This document shows positions 25,777-28,245 of a stretch of DNA of 64,000 bases, one piece after another (position 1 is the stretch's first letter; every line of letters starts with the position of its first letter). A program made the position numbers and the translations under genes. The notes beneath the pieces were generated by a model. It did no database searches. It was not told where the DNA came from and worked only from the letters and a program-made list of their open reading frames with translations. This stretch comes from Clostridia bacterium (GTDB lineage: Bacteria; Bacillota; Clostridia; Oscillospirales; SIG627), in contig JAFWZW010000018.1 in assembly GCA_017517325.1 (NCBI GenBank), positions 8,061 to 72,060 of the forward strand. Direction: 5' to 3'.

Positions 25777-27291
25777 CTATTCTCCAACGGTAAGTTCTTC
25801 AAAGCGGGTGGTGATATCAAAGATATATTTATCCAGATGGCGGGTATCGTCACACGCACCGAATTTTGAAGTATACACAACGTTATCCTCAAAGGCATCT
25901 AAAATAATGCGCATCTGTTTGCCACTGATGGGATGGGGGCGCTTCCCCGGTTTGCAATTCTTTAAAATAATATCAATGAGGATTTCGGAGGGGGGCATTT
26001 TCCCCTCTAAATTCACGCAGAAATACGGCTTTCCCATCCCCGTCACCAATTCGATCTCCTCACAGAAGGAGGGAGAGTTGAGCATATTTTTACTAAGATA
26101 AAACACGGCTCCCACACAACGCTTATCCGTAATACGTTCCTTTACGTATTCCTGCCAGCGATTTCCGGAGGCTATATTCTGATCGTAAAGAAAGGGCACC
26201 TTGTGTCTGTAAAGCTCCAGAAGATCACAGTAAACGGAATGAAAATCCAACGTGGAATAGCAAACGAAAAAGTAACGGTCCTCTTCCCTGTGTTCGGGAA
26301 CCGGCGGAAGCAAGTGACACTGATTCTGGACGGGTGCTTCCAATACCGCCTTTTTGATCTCATCCAGCCTCTCGGCAGGAACGGTGAAGCGGGGGTGCTT
26401 CCGTTTATCCTGAATATCCCACACCTTTCGGCAAAATTCCTGATATTCCTTTCGTTCTGCCCCGCGGTACACCTTTTTTTCCACCAAATAAGACTCCGCT
26501 CTCTGCAGATCTGAAAGCACGCGTTTGCAAAGGGCATCAAACTCCTTTCCCTTAAGGGAAAGGCCGGACAAAAAATCAAGCTTTGCTTTGATGTAATAAT
26601 ACTTGGGATATCGGGGATTGCGAGCGATAGCTTCTTTGATGTACTTCATTGCACGGGGGAGCTCATCATCCGACAGCATATCCGCATCATATTCCAGCAC
26701 CATACAAACCGTAGAGGCAAAGGAGCAATAAACGCCGGGGTTGCAGATTTTCTCCTCCATGAGGCGGAAAATGGCATTCCCATCGTGATTCAACGCCTTC
26801 CGATAATCGTAAGGGGAACGGCTCCGTTTATAATAGCGGGAAAAAACCTCGTTATAAAGGGGATAATCGAAAAAGGCATCTTCGAAGATCTCCTCCGCCA
26901 GCCCGCGAAGCCCTTCCAGATCATCGGTCTTTTTATAAATAAGAGACAGGGCGTAATAAGCGGCAAAATCCGATTTCTTCGGAACGATCTTTTTTTTGCA
27001 AGAGAGAAGGGCGCGCTCCAGGATCGTTTCCAAGATTTCGGCAATGCTCCGAAAGGTCTTTTCCACAAAATACTCAAGCGCAAGATTAAACGCATATTCC
27101 CCTGTACCGAACCGTTCGGTGATCTTCTGCAATGCACGGACGGTTTCCTCCGTCAACGCTTCATTTCCTGCACTCTCTGCTTCATCCAAAGCGGGCAGGA
27201 GTGCATTGACCACTTCTTTTACTTCTTTTAATGTTTTTTCATACGTTTCCGCATTTTTTGCGGAAACCGTTGTTTTTTCTTTTGAATCCAT
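25777..27291 (-). CDS. helical-repeat protein with a C-terminal TIR-like domain
   Basis: The C-terminal ~130 aa reads YFFVCYSTLDFHSVYCDLLELYRHKVPFLYDQNIASGNRWQEYVKERITDKRCVGAVFYLSKNMLNSPSFCEEIELV. This follows the TIR pattern: hydrophobic strand plus xSY/S, ...G..w...i, then S.x[WF]C..E. The N-terminal ~330 aa are alpha-helical and TPR-like. Confidence 0.6.
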   Translation of the reverse strand: MDSKEKTTVSAKNAETYEKTLKEVKEVVNALLPALDEAESAGNEALTEETVRALQKITERFGTGEYAFNLALEYFVEKTFRSIAEILETILERALLSCKKKIVPKKSDFAAYYALSLIYKKTDDLEGLRGLAEEIFEDAFFDYPLYNEVFSRYYKRSRSPYDYRKALNHDGNAIFRLMEEKICNPGVYCSFASTVCMVLEYDADMLSDDELPRAMKYIKEAIARNPRYPKYYYIKAKLDFLSGLSLKGKEFDALCKRVLSDLQRAESYLVEKKVYRGAERKEYQEFCRKVWDIQDKRKHPRFTVPAERLDEIKKAVLEAPVQNQCHLLPPVPEHREEDRYFFVCYSTLDFHSVYCDLLELYRHKVPFLYDQNIASGNRWQEYVKERITDKRCVGAVFYLSKNMLNSPSFCEEIELVTGMGKPYFCVNLEGKMPPSEILIDIILKNCKPGKRPHPISGKQMRIILDAFEDNVVYTSKFGACDDTRHLDKYIFDITTRFEELTVGE

Positions 27292-27399
27292 TTTTCCACC
27301 CCCTTCGCATAGAAAAAATTATACCATTTGCCCTACCGTTTGTCAACCGATCCCCTGCGGGGGTCCCGCAGCTCCCTTGCCCCTTTTCTCTCTTTTCCC

Positions 27400-27427
27400 T
27401 TGACAATCCACAAAAAAATGTTATAAT
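27400..27427 (+). promoter_or_regulatory. near-consensus extended -10 promoter driving the tandem units and tRNA-Pro
   Basis: TTGACA (27400-27405), 16-nt spacer ending in TGt, TATAAT (27422-27427). Confidence 0.7.
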
Positions 27428-27504
27428 GGTTTGGCTATGGATTCGGCACAGTCGAAAACGCAAGATCCAACGCACTTCCCCACCCCAAAGCCCACTGCAC
27501 CATG

Positions 27505-27896
27505 ATCGAGGCGTGGCTCATTTTTGGGACGTTTGCGAGCGCCGCCGGGGGCGGATCAAGCGAGCAATAAGGAGTGGCAGCAACACGCCGATTGGCAAGC
27601 AAACACCTTTGCGCAGACAGAGGCGATGTTGCAACAGGAAGAGCGCCGCATAGCGGCAGAGCATAGTTTTTTCAGGCACTATTACTAAAATTTGTTTTTT
27701 ATCGAGGCGTGGCTCAGTTTGGGGACGTTTGCGAGCGCCGCCGGAGGCGGATCAAGCGAGCAATAAGGAGTGGCAGCAACACGCCGATTGGCAAGCAAAC
27801 GCCTTTGCGCAGACAGAGACGATGTTGCAACAGGAAGAGCGCCGCGTAGCGGCAGAGCATAGTTTTTTCAGGCACTATTACTAAAATTTGTTTTTT
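27505..27896 (+). repeat. two 196-bp tandem units (97% identical), each beginning with the first ~20 nt of the downstream tRNA-Pro
   Basis: Unit 1 is 27505-27700 and unit 2 is 27701-27896, with 6 substitutions between them. The first 22 nt of unit 2 are identical to 27897-27918, which is the 5' end of the tRNA plus 2 nt. A second 12-nt tRNA match (agagcgccgcgt) lies at 27836-27847. Confidence 0.9.
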
Positions 27897-27898
27897 AT

Positions 27899-27975
27899 CG
27901 AGGCGTGGCTCAGTTTGGTAGAGCGCCGCGTTCGGGACGCGGAGGCCGCAAGTTCAAGTCTTGTCGCCTCGACCA
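27899..27975 (+). tRNA. tRNA-Pro (anticodon CGG), CCA encoded
   Basis: Hand-folded cloverleaf. Acceptor CGAGGCG/CGCCTCG with C1:G72 and A73. D-stem GCTC/GAGC. Anticodon stem CCGCG/CGCGG with loop TTCGGGA (CGG, G37). T-arm GCAAG-TTCAAGT-CTTGT. Confidence 0.9.
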
Positions 27976-28018
27976 AAAATCGACAAGTTTCGACAGAGAC
28001 TTGTCGATTTTACTTTTT
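27976..28018 (+). terminator. rho-independent terminator after tRNA-Pro
   Basis: Stem aaatcgacaagt / acttgtcgattt followed by T-rich sequence. Confidence 0.8.
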
Positions 28019-28203
28019 CACTATTAACTCTTCACTTTTCACTCTTCTCTTTCGAAACTTGTCGATTAGGTAATAAGTAATAGTGAATAGTGAAGAAGTG
28101 CTGATGAAGCTTTTCTCCCTTTAGTCGAAAAGCATTATATTTTACTAGAGTTCGAATTCATACGCAAAGCTTCCGAAAATATCTTTTTCATAGCCCATAG
28201 ACA

Positions 28204-28245
28204 CAAAAAGAGGACACCAATTCGGTGTCCTATTTTTATTTTTGA
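28204..28245. terminator. hairpin terminator downstream of the FliB-like gene
   Basis: Stem ggacacc / ggtgtcc with T-runs on both strands. Confidence 0.6.

What the first reader, a model, noticed from the sequence alone, without database searches (positions are those of the whole stretch)
27400..28018. Consensus promoter, two 196-bp tRNA-headed tandem units, a genuine tRNA-Pro and a terminator: a possible structured RNA array
A near-perfect extended -10 promoter (27400-27427) points into two 97%-identical 196-bp units, and then directly into tRNA-Pro(CGG) and its terminator. So the units should be co-transcribed with the tRNA. Each unit starts with tRNA nt 1-19. It then diverges for ~113 nt, resumes a 12-nt match to tRNA nt 21-32 (agagcgccgcgt, 27836-27847), and ends in a T-rich tail. 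In effect it is a tRNA 5' third with a large insertion in the D-loop and no T-arm or acceptor 3' strand. The insert contains several hairpins: GCAACA...TGTTGC, CCGCC-GGR-GGCGG, GCAAA-CRCC-TTTGC and GCCGC-RTA-GCGGC. Three of the six inter-unit substitutions fall exactly in those three small loops. That fits either a conserved RNA structure or chance. Such 5'-end duplications are not what integrase att sites, which use tRNA 3' ends, normally leave behind.
Basis: seen in the sequence. Interest (0 to 1): 0.7.

Follow-up and report, generated by a model that had tools for sequence, protein, structure and literature searches.

The report
New tRNA-embedded structured RNA family
Two tandem copies of a ~115-nt folded RNA module sit inside cut-down copies of a proline tRNA, just upstream of the real tRNA gene. 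The module belongs to a widespread RNA family of gut and rumen Clostridia that is absent from Rfam and is repeatedly found fused to tRNA genes.

Summary
A perfect extended -10 promoter leads into two 196-bp units that are 97% identical, then tRNA-Pro(CGG), then a terminator. The "113-nt insert" is not strain-specific. All hosts are gut or rumen Clostridia, with several copies per genome. Rfam 15 has no match, even at E<=10. A consensus fold is strongly supported by covariation: 92% of cells pair against 35-53% in slid controls, 21 of 26 pairs show compensatory changes, and 0 of 500 shuffles reach the score. The fold has a helix P1, a GA-rich internal loop, a GC hairpin and a two-part helix P2. 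The tRNA head is a recurring architecture. Of 140 copies, 46 lie within 500 nt of a same-strand tRNA and only 1 near an opposite-strand tRNA. They are embedded in truncated copies of the neighbouring tRNA at D-, anticodon-, variable- or T-loop positions. Removing the element never restores a tRNA, so it is not an intron. The two-unit array itself is a recent, polymorphic duplication. The most likely reading is a small structured RNA gene that rides tRNA transcription units. Its function is unknown, and a mobile-RNA reading is not excluded.

The parts
27400..27427 (+). Sigma-70 promoter with an extended -10 (TTGACA, 16 nt, TG-TATAAT) that drives the array and tRNA-Pro
   Evidence: 12 of 12 consensus matches with TG. 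Strong promoters sit in the same place in related loci.
27428..27506 (+). About 70-nt transcribed leader between the promoter and unit 1; it is not repeated
   Evidence: Identical in contigs L001-L005.
27507..27526 (+). Unit 1 head: a copy of tRNA-Pro bases 1-20 (acceptor 5' strand, D-stem 5' strand, D-loop through GG) with 2 substitutions
   Evidence: Alignment A1; local alignment.
27524..27638 (+). Structured RNA element, copy 1: P1, GA-rich internal loop, core hairpin CCGCC-GGG-GGCGG, and P2a/P2b with a tip hairpin
   Evidence: Covariance model R1, 85.0 bits, E 8.6e-18, full length 1-116.
27640..27657 (+). Unit 1 remnant of the tRNA D-stem 3' strand plus an anticodon arm shrunk to the hairpin GCCGC-AUA-GCGGC
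   Evidence: compared with the fuller remnants in L040 and L075.
27658..27702 (+). U-rich spacer, identical to the 5' flank of the real tRNA
27703..27722 (+). Unit 2 head: an exact copy of tRNA-Pro bases 1-20
27720..27834 (+). Structured RNA element, copy 2. P1 pairs 27729-27732 with 27760-27763. Core hairpin pairs 27738-27742 with 27746-27750. P2a pairs 27776-27780 with 27824-27828. P2b pairs 27782-27785 with 27818-27821, with a C.A mismatch at 27784/27819. Tip hairpin spans 27795-27808.
   Evidence: R1, 83.6 bits, E 1.8e-17; helix coordinates read.
27836..27853 (+). Unit 2 tRNA remnant: agagcgccgcgt matches tRNA bases 22-33, then the hairpin GCCGC-GUA-GCGGC
27854..27898 (+). U-rich spacer that forms the 5' leader of tRNA-Pro. 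No promoter-like site was found here.
27899..27975 (+). Functional tRNA-Pro(CGG)
   Evidence: ARAGORN; Rfam RF00005, 65.3 bits.
27976..28021 (+). Intrinsic terminator: a 16-pair hairpin followed by a T-run

Best explanation
Each 196-bp unit is a chimeric gene. A truncated copy of tRNA-Pro(CGG) carries, in its D-loop, a ~115-nt member of a large family of structured RNAs that is absent from Rfam. The family occurs in gut and rumen Clostridia (Oscillospiraceae, Acutalibacteraceae, Ruminococcaceae) and in contigs classed as viral. What is shown: the element is conserved across more than 100 species-level genomes; its fold is maintained by compensatory changes on the tRNA-sense strand; it lies in the same orientation as tRNA genes and next to them far more often than chance allows; and in loci built like this one a strong promoter sits upstream of the chimeric copy while none is apparent before the intact tRNA. 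What is inferred: the consensus promoter at 27400 makes one precursor containing leader, unit 1, unit 2 and tRNA-Pro. RNase P cleavage at the 5' end of the real tRNA releases the upstream RNA. Nucleases trim the U-rich spacers, and the compact element survives as a stable small RNA of roughly 110-190 nt. In this locus the tRNA D-stem (GCUC...GAGC) closes the element. The near-invariant GA-rich internal loop and GC hairpin probably form a protein-binding or tertiary-contact platform, so the RNA acts in trans as an RNA or a ribonucleoprotein. The tRNA provides transcription and processing. The two-unit array arose recently by unequal recombination between repeats, and its copy number varies within the species.
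For: Hosts are listed. Model R1 finds 119 hits in 100 loci, including copies whose core differs from the search pattern.

Not in Rfam: no family matches at gathering score or at E<=10.

Structure: the first four P1 pairs are Watson-Crick in 84%, 94%, 78% and 72% of 110 non-redundant copies, against 19-48% when the register is slid. All four pair types occur. On alignment A4, 91.7% of cells pair against 35-52% when slid, with 177 double-change cells against 23-60, and 0 of 500 shuffles reach the score. On A5 (85 sequences), 92% pair, 21 of 26 pairs show compensatory changes, and the covariation score is 0.517 against at most 0.116.

Strand: G.U pairs outnumber A.C pairs 38 to 7 in P1, and one U.G pair is conserved in 53 of 85 copies.

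tRNA linkage: 46 of 140 copies lie within 500 nt of a same-strand tRNA and 1 near an opposite-strand tRNA, p = 7e-13, across 17 isoacceptors.

Same architecture elsewhere: L129 (two units, period 167), L098, L113, L100, L016, L040, L075 and L080.

Transcription: consensus promoters lie directly upstream of the chimeric copy, and none is visible before the intact tRNA.

Free-standing unit: no protein family recurs next to the element, and the downstream gene is convergent in 21 cases against 8 co-directional.

Long-term constraint at this tRNA: the tRNA-Pro(CGG) loci in the window, L040 and L080 carry P2a as GCAAC/GUUGC, GUGAC/GUCAC and GUAAC/GUUAC, although their flanking genes are unrelated.

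Recent duplication: L001 has one unit and L002 has two.
Against: No expression data were available, so the transcript, its processing and its stability are all inferred. The whole-unit MFE is no better than shuffles (z = 0.15). The invariance of the core is partly imposed by the exact-match search pattern. Alignment A5 was fitted to the model, and the sequences are phylogenetically related, so the shuffle statistics overstate independence. A closing helix formed from the flanks is not general (cis against trans p = 0.27). The strand bias does not separate RNA from single-stranded DNA. No partner protein or target was identified. This explanation does not account for why truncated tRNA copies, and in some loci antisense tRNA pieces, accompany the element.
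Confidence: 0.55

Rival explanations
1. The element is a selfish mobile element that moves through RNA. The RNA inserts into exposed single-stranded loops of folded tRNAs or pre-tRNAs, for example by a reaction like reverse splicing or by template switching. The chimera then returns to the genome through cDNA and tRNA-homology recombination, leaving a truncated chimeric tRNA next to the intact gene. Spacer-free arrays would be concatemers.
For: Insertion points fall in all four cloverleaf loops: D-loop after G18G19 in about 20 loci, anticodon loop (L114, L028, L135, L041), variable loop (L082) and T-loop (L068). DNA-level targeting has no obvious reason to prefer these positions. Orientation is always sense. 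In most single-unit loci the left edge of the duplicated tRNA piece lies within -7 to +3 of the mature 5' end. Several genomes carry multiple near-identical copies, for example four in MAG JAZNIH01. The element occurs in viral contigs. Head-to-tail arrays without spacers occur in L013 (3 x 101 nt) and L087 (3 x 108 nt). Inverted sense/antisense tRNA pieces 5' of the element resemble snap-back priming products.
Against: No reverse transcriptase or other enzyme is linked to the element, and none was found among the window genes examined. No clean interrupted tRNA or empty-site pair was recovered. Removing the element never restores a tRNA. No ribozyme family matches. Selection could also explain the loop positions, because only insertions that leave an intact tRNA copy survive.
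Confidence: 0.18
2. The element is a non-autonomous DNA transposon, of MITE or PATE type. A transposase encoded elsewhere recognises its hairpins as single-stranded DNA, and it targets G-rich sites such as TTGG(G) that happen to occur in tRNA loops.
For: The 5' junction almost always follows GG(G). The element is multicopy, patchily distributed and occurs in tandem arrays. Strand-specific hairpins are also typical of IS200/IS605 ends and of attC sites. A replication-linked insertion bias could produce co-orientation with tRNA genes.
Against: There are no terminal inverted repeats or target-site duplications common to the family, and flank complementarity is not general. The two ends do not carry similar hairpins. 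An internal multi-helix fold with conserved asymmetric loops and a conserved U.G pair is more than a transposase binding site needs. No transposase is linked. This model does not explain why the adjoining tRNA piece is duplicated.
Confidence: 0.1
3. The element is a cis-acting leader that regulates tRNA-Pro. It would sense a ligand, a protein or a tRNA and control read-through or maturation of the downstream tRNA through the hairpin and U-run that follow it.
For: The element lies in the 5' leader of single-copy, often minor-codon tRNAs that have their own strong promoters. In the window it is followed by GCCGC-RUA-GCGGC and, 9 nt later, by U6.
Against: Many copies lie downstream of tRNAs or nowhere near one. 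The hairpin and U-run do not meet the terminator criteria, and the sequence after the element is not conserved across loci. The Rfam T-box family does not match. Two identical sensors in tandem would be unusual.
Confidence: 0.07
4. The array is a plain recent tandem duplication of non-functional DNA, such as an integrase att remnant or decayed tRNA debris, with chance hairpins.
For: The units are 97% identical, copy number differs between contigs of the same strain type, and the MFE z-score is 0.15.
Against: The insert is conserved with compensatory changes in more than 100 genomes. No integrase lies nearby. The retained fragments are tRNA 5' ends, and the element is the same in 17 different tRNA contexts. 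This explanation fits only the doubling step, not the unit.
Confidence: 0.03

Closest known systems
Small RNAs made from tRNA precursors, such as E. coli 3'ETS-leuZ (own knowledge)
   Same: A non-tRNA RNA is co-transcribed with a tRNA from the tRNA promoter and is released when RNase P or RNase E matures the tRNA.
   Different: Those RNAs are short spacer fragments that act by base-pairing, are specific to one locus and have no conserved fold. Here a ~115-nt multi-helix module is conserved across families of bacteria and across 17 tRNA contexts, and it is embedded in a pseudo-tRNA.
tRNA-derived SINEs with highly conserved central domains, such as the CORE and HCD SINEs of eukaryotes (see PMC11481361, listed)
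   Same: Both have a modular layout: a tRNA-derived head that varies between subfamilies, then a conserved central domain, then a variable tail. Both are multicopy.
   Different: SINEs are dispersed by LINE reverse transcriptases and do not sit next to the parent tRNA gene. Here the head always matches the adjacent tRNA, no reverse transcriptase is linked, and the host is a bacterium.
Orphan structured bacterial and phage ncRNAs often found near tRNAs: ROOL, GOLLD and raiA (PMC5737381, PMC12286853)
   Same: These are widespread structured RNAs of unknown function, found by comparative genomics in Firmicutes and prophages and often close to tRNA genes.
   Different: ROOL and GOLLD are 500-800 nt and are Rfam families. 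None matches here. None is described as inserted within tRNA-derived sequence.
tRNA introns: bacterial group I introns in anticodon loops, and archaeal bulge-helix-bulge introns including the box C/D-containing pre-tRNA-Trp intron (own knowledge)
   Same: A structured RNA lies inside tRNA loop positions in the sense orientation. The GA-rich core looks superficially like a box C motif.
   Different: Removing the element never regenerates a tRNA, because the interrupted copies are truncated. Bacteria lack the archaeal splicing endonuclease. At ~115 nt the element is far below group I intron size, and no Rfam intron family matches.
Bacterial Y-RNA-like YrlA and engineered tRNA scaffolds (own knowledge)
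   Same: An RNA module is fused to tRNA-like parts that can supply folding, processing and stability.
   Different: YrlA is an Rfam family linked to rsr, and it does not match. The heads here lack a T-arm and an acceptor 3' strand, so full tRNA mimicry is absent in this locus.
MITEs, PATEs and REP elements of bacteria (PMC11602168, listed)
   Same: These are short, multicopy, intergenic elements that form hairpins. They are present in hosts and phages and sometimes occur in arrays.
   Different: The element has no family-wide terminal inverted repeats or target-site duplications. Its internal fold has conserved asymmetric loops and wobble pairs. Its sense linkage to tRNA genes is strict.

Membership tests
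tRNA (Rfam RF00005 / ARAGORN) | A cloverleaf with acceptor, D, anticodon and T arms that the tRNA models can detect | tested here: not met
   Only 27899-27975 is called as a tRNA. The units give no tRNA hit even at E<=10.
tRNA intron (group I or other excisable intron) | Removing the insert restores an intact tRNA | tested here: not met
   316,600 splice-junction combinations around the fetched copies that had enough flanking sequence were run through ARAGORN. Only trivial hits to the downstream intact tRNA appeared.
tRNA intron (group I) | A match to the group I intron covariance model, with a size of at least ~200 nt | tested here: not met
   No Rfam hit. The element is 108-118 nt.
T-box leader | Stem I with a specifier, the T-box sequence with an antiterminator, and a downstream aminoacyl-tRNA-related gene | tested here: not met
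   RF00230 does not match at E<=10. The downstream feature is a tRNA followed by a terminator.
Integrase att-site remnant at a tRNA gene | A duplicated tRNA 3' segment flanking an island that carries an integrase | tested here: not met
   The duplicated pieces are 5' ends. The inserted unit is only 196 bp. No integrase domain was found in the 29 window ORFs scanned with Pfam between 835 and 47221. ORFs beyond 47221 were not scanned.
Type III toxin-antitoxin RNA array | Tandem RNA repeats followed, after a terminator, by a co-directional toxin gene | tested here: not met
   The array is followed by a tRNA, a terminator and a convergent gene. There is no PADLOC hit.
MITE / PATE (IS200-IS605-derived) | Terminal inverted repeats or similar subterminal hairpins at both ends, with precise ends next to a fixed target | tested here: inconclusive
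   Flank complementarity is not general (p = 0.27). The 5' junction follows GG(G). No empty sites were examined.
Known Rfam RNA family (any of 4227) | A covariance-model score at or above the gathering threshold | tested here: not met
   Searches used the gathering threshold; searches used E<=10. Nothing overlaps the element.
   Window 27524-27638 scores 85.0 bits and 27720-27834 scores 83.6 bits, both covering model positions 1-116. Copy 1 was one of the seed sequences; copy 2 was not.
Kink-turn / box C/D-like RNA | A canonical stem, a 3-nt bulge, then tandem sheared G.A pairs in the standard geometry | tested here: inconclusive
   By eye, the core can form C-G, G.A, A.G, G-C, C-G and G.A pairs plus an AUGA bulge. 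It does not fit the standard K-turn register. There are only weak partial hits to the archaeal C/D families sR23 and sR36 (11 bits). Three-dimensional structure cannot be tested here.
Small protein-coding gene (51-aa ORF at 27729-27884) | A reading frame conserved among homologues | tested here: not met
   Homologues differ by indels that are not multiples of three, and the frame is broken in Vescimonas. The substitutions are compensatory pairs.

The most novel reading that the evidence does not exclude
The element is a bacterial mobile RNA. It would be a compact (~105-115 nt) structured RNA that inserts, at RNA level, into exposed loops of tRNAs and is copied back into the genome beside the parent tRNA gene. 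That would make it a prokaryotic counterpart of tRNA-derived SINEs or of reverse-splicing introns, possibly with a catalytic core and possibly descended from a tRNA-Pro anticodon arm, since the core begins GAGCGCCGC like tRNA bases 23-31.
Probability: 0.15. Interest if true: 0.95.

Novelty: categorically new. Interest (0 to 1): 0.8.

Why it matters
If this holds, gut and rumen Clostridia and their phages carry a common, highly constrained RNA class that no catalogue lists. The hosts include cultured, health-relevant genera such as Faecalibacterium, Dysosmobacter and Vescimonas. The way the RNA is built into truncated tRNA copies beside the intact gene has no described bacterial precedent that I could find. 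It offers a defined and testable system on several fronts. One is how new RNA genes borrow tRNA promoters and tRNA processing. Another is whether bacteria have tRNA-targeted mobile RNAs. A third is what protein or ligand recognises the invariant GA-rich loop and GC hairpin. It also matters for annotation, because these loci look like tRNA pseudogenes or assembly-breaking repeats: three short-read contigs end inside the unit.

Tried and rejected
- **Rfam:** scanned at gathering score and at E<=10 on the window and on related loci. Nothing matched.
- **Phage database (blastn):** no match.
- **Plasmid database (blastn):** only a 46-nt hit in Vescimonas, which became the lead to the family.
- **Thermodynamic stability of one unit:** not significant (z = 0.15), so it was dropped as evidence.
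- **tRNA-intron hypothesis:** rejected by the in-silico splicing test.
- **Linked protein:** none found. The best ORF cluster covers 9 of about 125 loci at variable positions, and most clusters are spurious ORFs running across the element.
- **Defence-system link through the neighbouring TIR-domain gene:** no PADLOC hit, and the gene does not recur in other loci.
- **Synteny of tRNA-Pro(CGG) loci:** none at protein level.
- **General closing helix from the flanks:** a 46/90-nt window test was marginal (p = 0.026). An exact-boundary test was not significant (p = 0.27). It was rejected as a family feature and kept only for the Vescimonas-like subgroup and the D-stem of the Pro loci.
- **Riboswitch-like placement:** rejected. 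The downstream gene is convergent in 21 cases against 8 co-directional, and the upstream gene is co-directional in 15 against 16 divergent.
- **Protein-coding reading of the unit ORFs:** rejected because the frames are not conserved.
- **Literature:** searches by sequence and by keyword found no description.
- **Not used:** the metagenome scan, protein homology searches and structure prediction, because none would bear on an RNA element.
Full report
**1. The observation.** Tandem Repeats Finder reports one array at 27505-27918, with period 196, 2.1 copies, 97% matches and no indels. ARAGORN and Rfam agree on a single tRNA in the 64-kb window, tRNA-Pro(CGG) at 27899-27975. The promoter scan finds TTGACA, 16 nt, TG-TATAAT at 27400-27427 with 12 of 12 matches. 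It also finds a 16-pair terminator hairpin at 27976-28011 followed by a T-run. Each unit opens with the first 20 bases of the tRNA, through the conserved D-loop GG. It then carries about 113 unrelated bases, resumes with agagcgccgcgt (tRNA bases 22-33), and ends in a U-rich stretch identical to the 5' flank of the real tRNA. The sixth, at 27623/27819, converts a C-G pair into C.A in unit 2.

**2. The single sequence alone is uninformative.** No Rfam family other than tRNA matches the window at gathering score. None overlaps the units even at E<=10. The unit folds no better than dinucleotide shuffles, at -57.5 against -58.1 kcal/mol (z = 0.15). Read alone, it could be a chance duplication.

**3. 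Same-species contigs.** Eighteen metagenome contigs encode the identical neighbouring 504-aa protein. In the five contigs shown (L001-L005), the intergenic DNA is otherwise identical. L001 has one unit, L002 has two (with the variant positions reshuffled), and three short contigs end inside the unit. So the doubling is recent and polymorphic, or collapsed by short-read assembly. The repeat is an assembly hazard.

**4. Homologues.** A blastn search of plasmid records gave one weak hit, an intergenic region of the Vescimonas fastidiosa 861-kb replicon. Read by eye, it shared blocks with the unit (CGAGCGCCGCCGGnGGCGGATnAAGCGAG, GAGTGGC, GCGCAGA, GCAACAGG). It also showed a helix with both strands changed, GCAAC/GUUGC here against GCGGU/ACCGC there. 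A 24-base pattern from the first block matched 11 IMG/VR contigs. Every host is a gut or rumen Clostridia lineage: Oscillospiraceae, Acutalibacteraceae, Ruminococcaceae including Faecalibacterium prausnitzii, Faecousia, Dysosmobacter, Neopoerus and Christensenella. Several genomes contribute more than one contig. None of these loci has an Rfam match at the element. Full-text searches with the core sequence and with keywords found no description.

**5. Structure.** The core is anchored, so helix P1 could be tested without any alignment. In 110 non-redundant copies, the four positions flanking the core are Watson-Crick in 84%, 94%, 78% and 72% of copies, with all four pair types present. Sliding the register by one or two gives 19-48%. 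RNAalifold on MAFFT alignments recovers five features:
- P1.
- Two G-C pairs inside a GA-rich internal loop.
- The CCGCC-GGN-GGCGG hairpin.
- A two-pair helix outside P2.
- P2a and P2b, separated by a 3-nt GGN bulge.

On 40 sequences, 91.7% of cells pair against 35-52% in slid controls. There are 177 double-change cells against 23-60, and 0 of 500 shuffles reach the score. A covariance model built from this alignment (R1) scores the two window copies at 85.0 and 83.6 bits and finds nothing else in the window. It finds 119 hits in 100 loci. Some of these have a core hairpin that differs from my search pattern in a compensatory way: CUCAC/GUGAG in L074 and CUGCC/GGCAG in L068. On the 85-sequence model alignment, 92% of cells pair and 21 of 26 pairs show compensatory changes. 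The covariation score is 0.517 against at most 0.116 when slid. That alignment is fitted to the model and the sequences are related, so these figures are upper bounds. G.U pairs outnumber A.C pairs 38 to 7 in P1, and one U.G pair is kept in 53 of 85 copies. The fold therefore belongs to the tRNA-sense strand.

By eye, the core can form C-G, G.A, A.G, an optional bulged A, G-C, C-G and G.A, followed by an AUGA bulge. This explains the CGAAGCG and CGAGCG variants. It is not a standard kink-turn. The second domain varies between subtypes, and the subtype in the window has GAGUGGCA-P2-AACAGG.

**6. The tRNA head is a rule, not an oddity.** Of 140 pattern matches outside the window's own species, 46 have a same-strand tRNA within 500 nt and 1 has an opposite-strand tRNA (p = 7e-13). 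Seventeen isoacceptors are involved. Two arrangements recur:

- **Arrangement (i), as in the window.** The order is promoter, tRNA 5' fragment, element, short tRNA remnant, spacer, then the intact copy of the same tRNA. It is seen for Pro-CGG (L040, L075, L080), Pro-TGG, Ser-CGA, Leu-TAG, Met and Arg-ACG. L129 has two tandem units of 167 bp before tRNA-Pro(TGG), an exact analogue of the window.
- **Arrangement (ii).** The order is intact tRNA with terminator, spacer, rearranged tRNA-derived sequence, element, then the tRNA 3' part (T-arm, acceptor strand, CCA and the same terminator). It is seen for Thr, Val, Trp, Met and Ser-GCT.

The element sits at loop positions of the tRNA copy. These are the D-loop after G18G19 (about 20 loci), the anticodon loop (L114, L028, L135, L041), the variable loop (L082) and the T-loop (L068). 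The 5' junction nearly always follows GG(G), which is also how free-standing copies begin (UGGGGA...). In most single-unit loci the duplicated tRNA piece starts within -7 to +3 of the mature 5' end. A consensus promoter lies just upstream of it, and none is visible before the intact tRNA. In the window, the GCCGC-RUA-GCGGC hairpin is the anticodon arm with its loop shortened. L040 still keeps UUCGGGA, with the CGG anticodon, at that place.

**7. What it is not.**
- **Not an intron.** Removing the element in 316,600 junction combinations never yields a tRNA.
- **Not tied to a protein gene.** No family recurs next to it. The window's neighbours (a weak TIR-domain protein, unknowns, FliB_C-like, PBP, FtsW) have no homologues in the other loci and no PADLOC match.
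- **No mobility enzyme seen nearby.** The part of the window examined is ordinary chromosome (infB, truB, RNase J and others). No integrase, transposase or reverse transcriptase domain was found in the 29 ORFs scanned between 835 and 47221.
- **Not placed like a riboswitch.** The next gene is convergent in 21 cases against 8 co-directional.
- **No general closing helix.** A helix made from the flanks is not a family feature (p = 0.27). It is clear and covarying in the Vescimonas-like subgroup, and in the Pro loci the tRNA D-stem plays that part.
- **Not protein-coding.** The ORFs across the unit are not conserved.

**8. Unexplained observations.** In 12 of 16 loci of arrangement (ii), the 5' flank of the element is significantly antisense to part of the neighbouring tRNA (none of 200 shuffles reached the score). 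Examples are TGGCGGAGAAAGAG in L121, which is the reverse complement of the tRNA-Ser 3' end including CCA, and UUAUGAG in the tRNA-Met loci, which is complementary to the anticodon loop. Spacer-free arrays occur, 3 x 101 nt in L013 and 3 x 108 nt in L087, so the module is complete in about 105 nt. The core begins GAGCGCCGC, the same nine bases as tRNA-Pro bases 23-31. This hints at an origin from, or recombination with, a tRNA-Pro anticodon arm.

**9. Interpretation.** Three things are shown: a conserved, sense-strand, multi-helix element; strict linkage to tRNA genes in the sense orientation; and promoter placement. The rest is inferred. One precursor runs from about 27434 through both units and tRNA-Pro to the terminator. 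RNase P cleavage at 27898/27899 frees the upstream RNA, and the compact element survives as a small RNA that acts in trans, probably with a protein bound to the invariant GA-loop and hairpin. The tRNA supplies strong transcription and processing, and unequal recombination between units changes copy number. I put this at about 0.55.

The main rival is a selfish element that moves through RNA and enters tRNA loops (0.18). It explains the loop positions, the mature-5'-end boundary, the antisense pieces and the concatemers better. It lacks any enzyme, any catalytic signature or any clean insertion event. A DNA-level MITE-like element (0.10) and a cis-regulatory tRNA leader (0.07) are weaker. A plain junk duplication is excluded for the unit and holds only for the doubling step.

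**10. Verdict.** The locus is a member of a widespread structured RNA family that is not in Rfam 15 and that I could not find described. Its tRNA-chimeric architecture has no bacterial precedent that I could find. The function remains to be determined experimentally.

Noticed in passing
window 27318-27346 (- strand) and 27400-27427 (+ strand): Two perfect 12-of-12 extended -10 promoters stand back to back, with 53 bp between them. The minus-strand one drives the 504-aa gene at 25777-27291, which has a sub-threshold TIR_2 match (25.2 bits against a cutoff of 28) and no PADLOC hit.
   Followed up: partly
window 27976-28099: Interleaved inverted repeats lie just after tRNA-Pro. Arms 27978-27999 and 28046-28067 are 95% complementary, and arms 28012-28032 and 28079-28099 are 86% complementary. 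Both overlap the terminator hairpin at 27976-28011, so alternative structures are possible. A separate bidirectional terminator lies at 28205-28237.
   Followed up: partly
window 40555-46452 (+): A 1965-aa ORF combines DUF4011, AAA_11/AAA_12 helicase domains and a REase_MTES_1575 nuclease domain. It looks like a defence-type helicase-nuclease. It is unrelated to the finding.
   Followed up: no
L013 5374-5720; L087 5495-5865; L012 (4.8-kb IMG/VR contig): Head-to-tail arrays of the element without spacers occur, 3 x 101 nt after a phage baseplate-like gene in L013 and 3 x 108 nt in L087. L012 is a short viral contig with at least four copies. The last AGG of one unit serves as the first GG of the next.
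   Followed up: partly
L121, L077, L107, L122, L046, L070, L041, L137, L014, L028 (5' flank of the element): The sequence just upstream of the element is significantly antisense to part of the neighbouring tRNA. The targets include the 3' end with CCA, the T-arm, and the anticodon loop of tRNA-Met. Sometimes a short sense piece follows and forms a perfect hairpin. The origin and role are unexplained.
   Followed up: partly
window 27533-27541 / 27729-27737 compared with tRNA 27921-27929: The element core begins GAGCGCCGC, identical to tRNA-Pro bases 23-31 (D-stem 3' strand plus the start of the anticodon stem). The core hairpin looks like an anticodon arm with a 3-nt loop, as does the anticodon-arm remnant at 27841-27853. 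This may indicate a tRNA origin for the core or a microhomology used in recombination.
   Followed up: no
L006 2700-3140 (Vescimonas fastidiosa NZ_AP023416.1): The same intergenic region holds other short repeats: two copies of gacggattgccRcaRccRgtgtgcgcac...gcaatgaca and two of cccctacggaRggttacaagg. This points to further uncharacterised intergenic repeat families in these genomes.
   Followed up: no
L002 and L003 compared with window 27505-27896: The six positions that distinguish unit 1 from unit 2 are recombined into mosaics in other contigs of the same strain type. This reflects either gene conversion between units or short-read assembly chimeras.
   Followed up: no
L014 10116-10562; L028 7620-8000: In some loci one tRNA-Pro(TGG) gene is flanked by the element on both sides. 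The upstream copy lies in a 5' pseudo-tRNA, and the downstream copy follows the terminator.
   Followed up: partly
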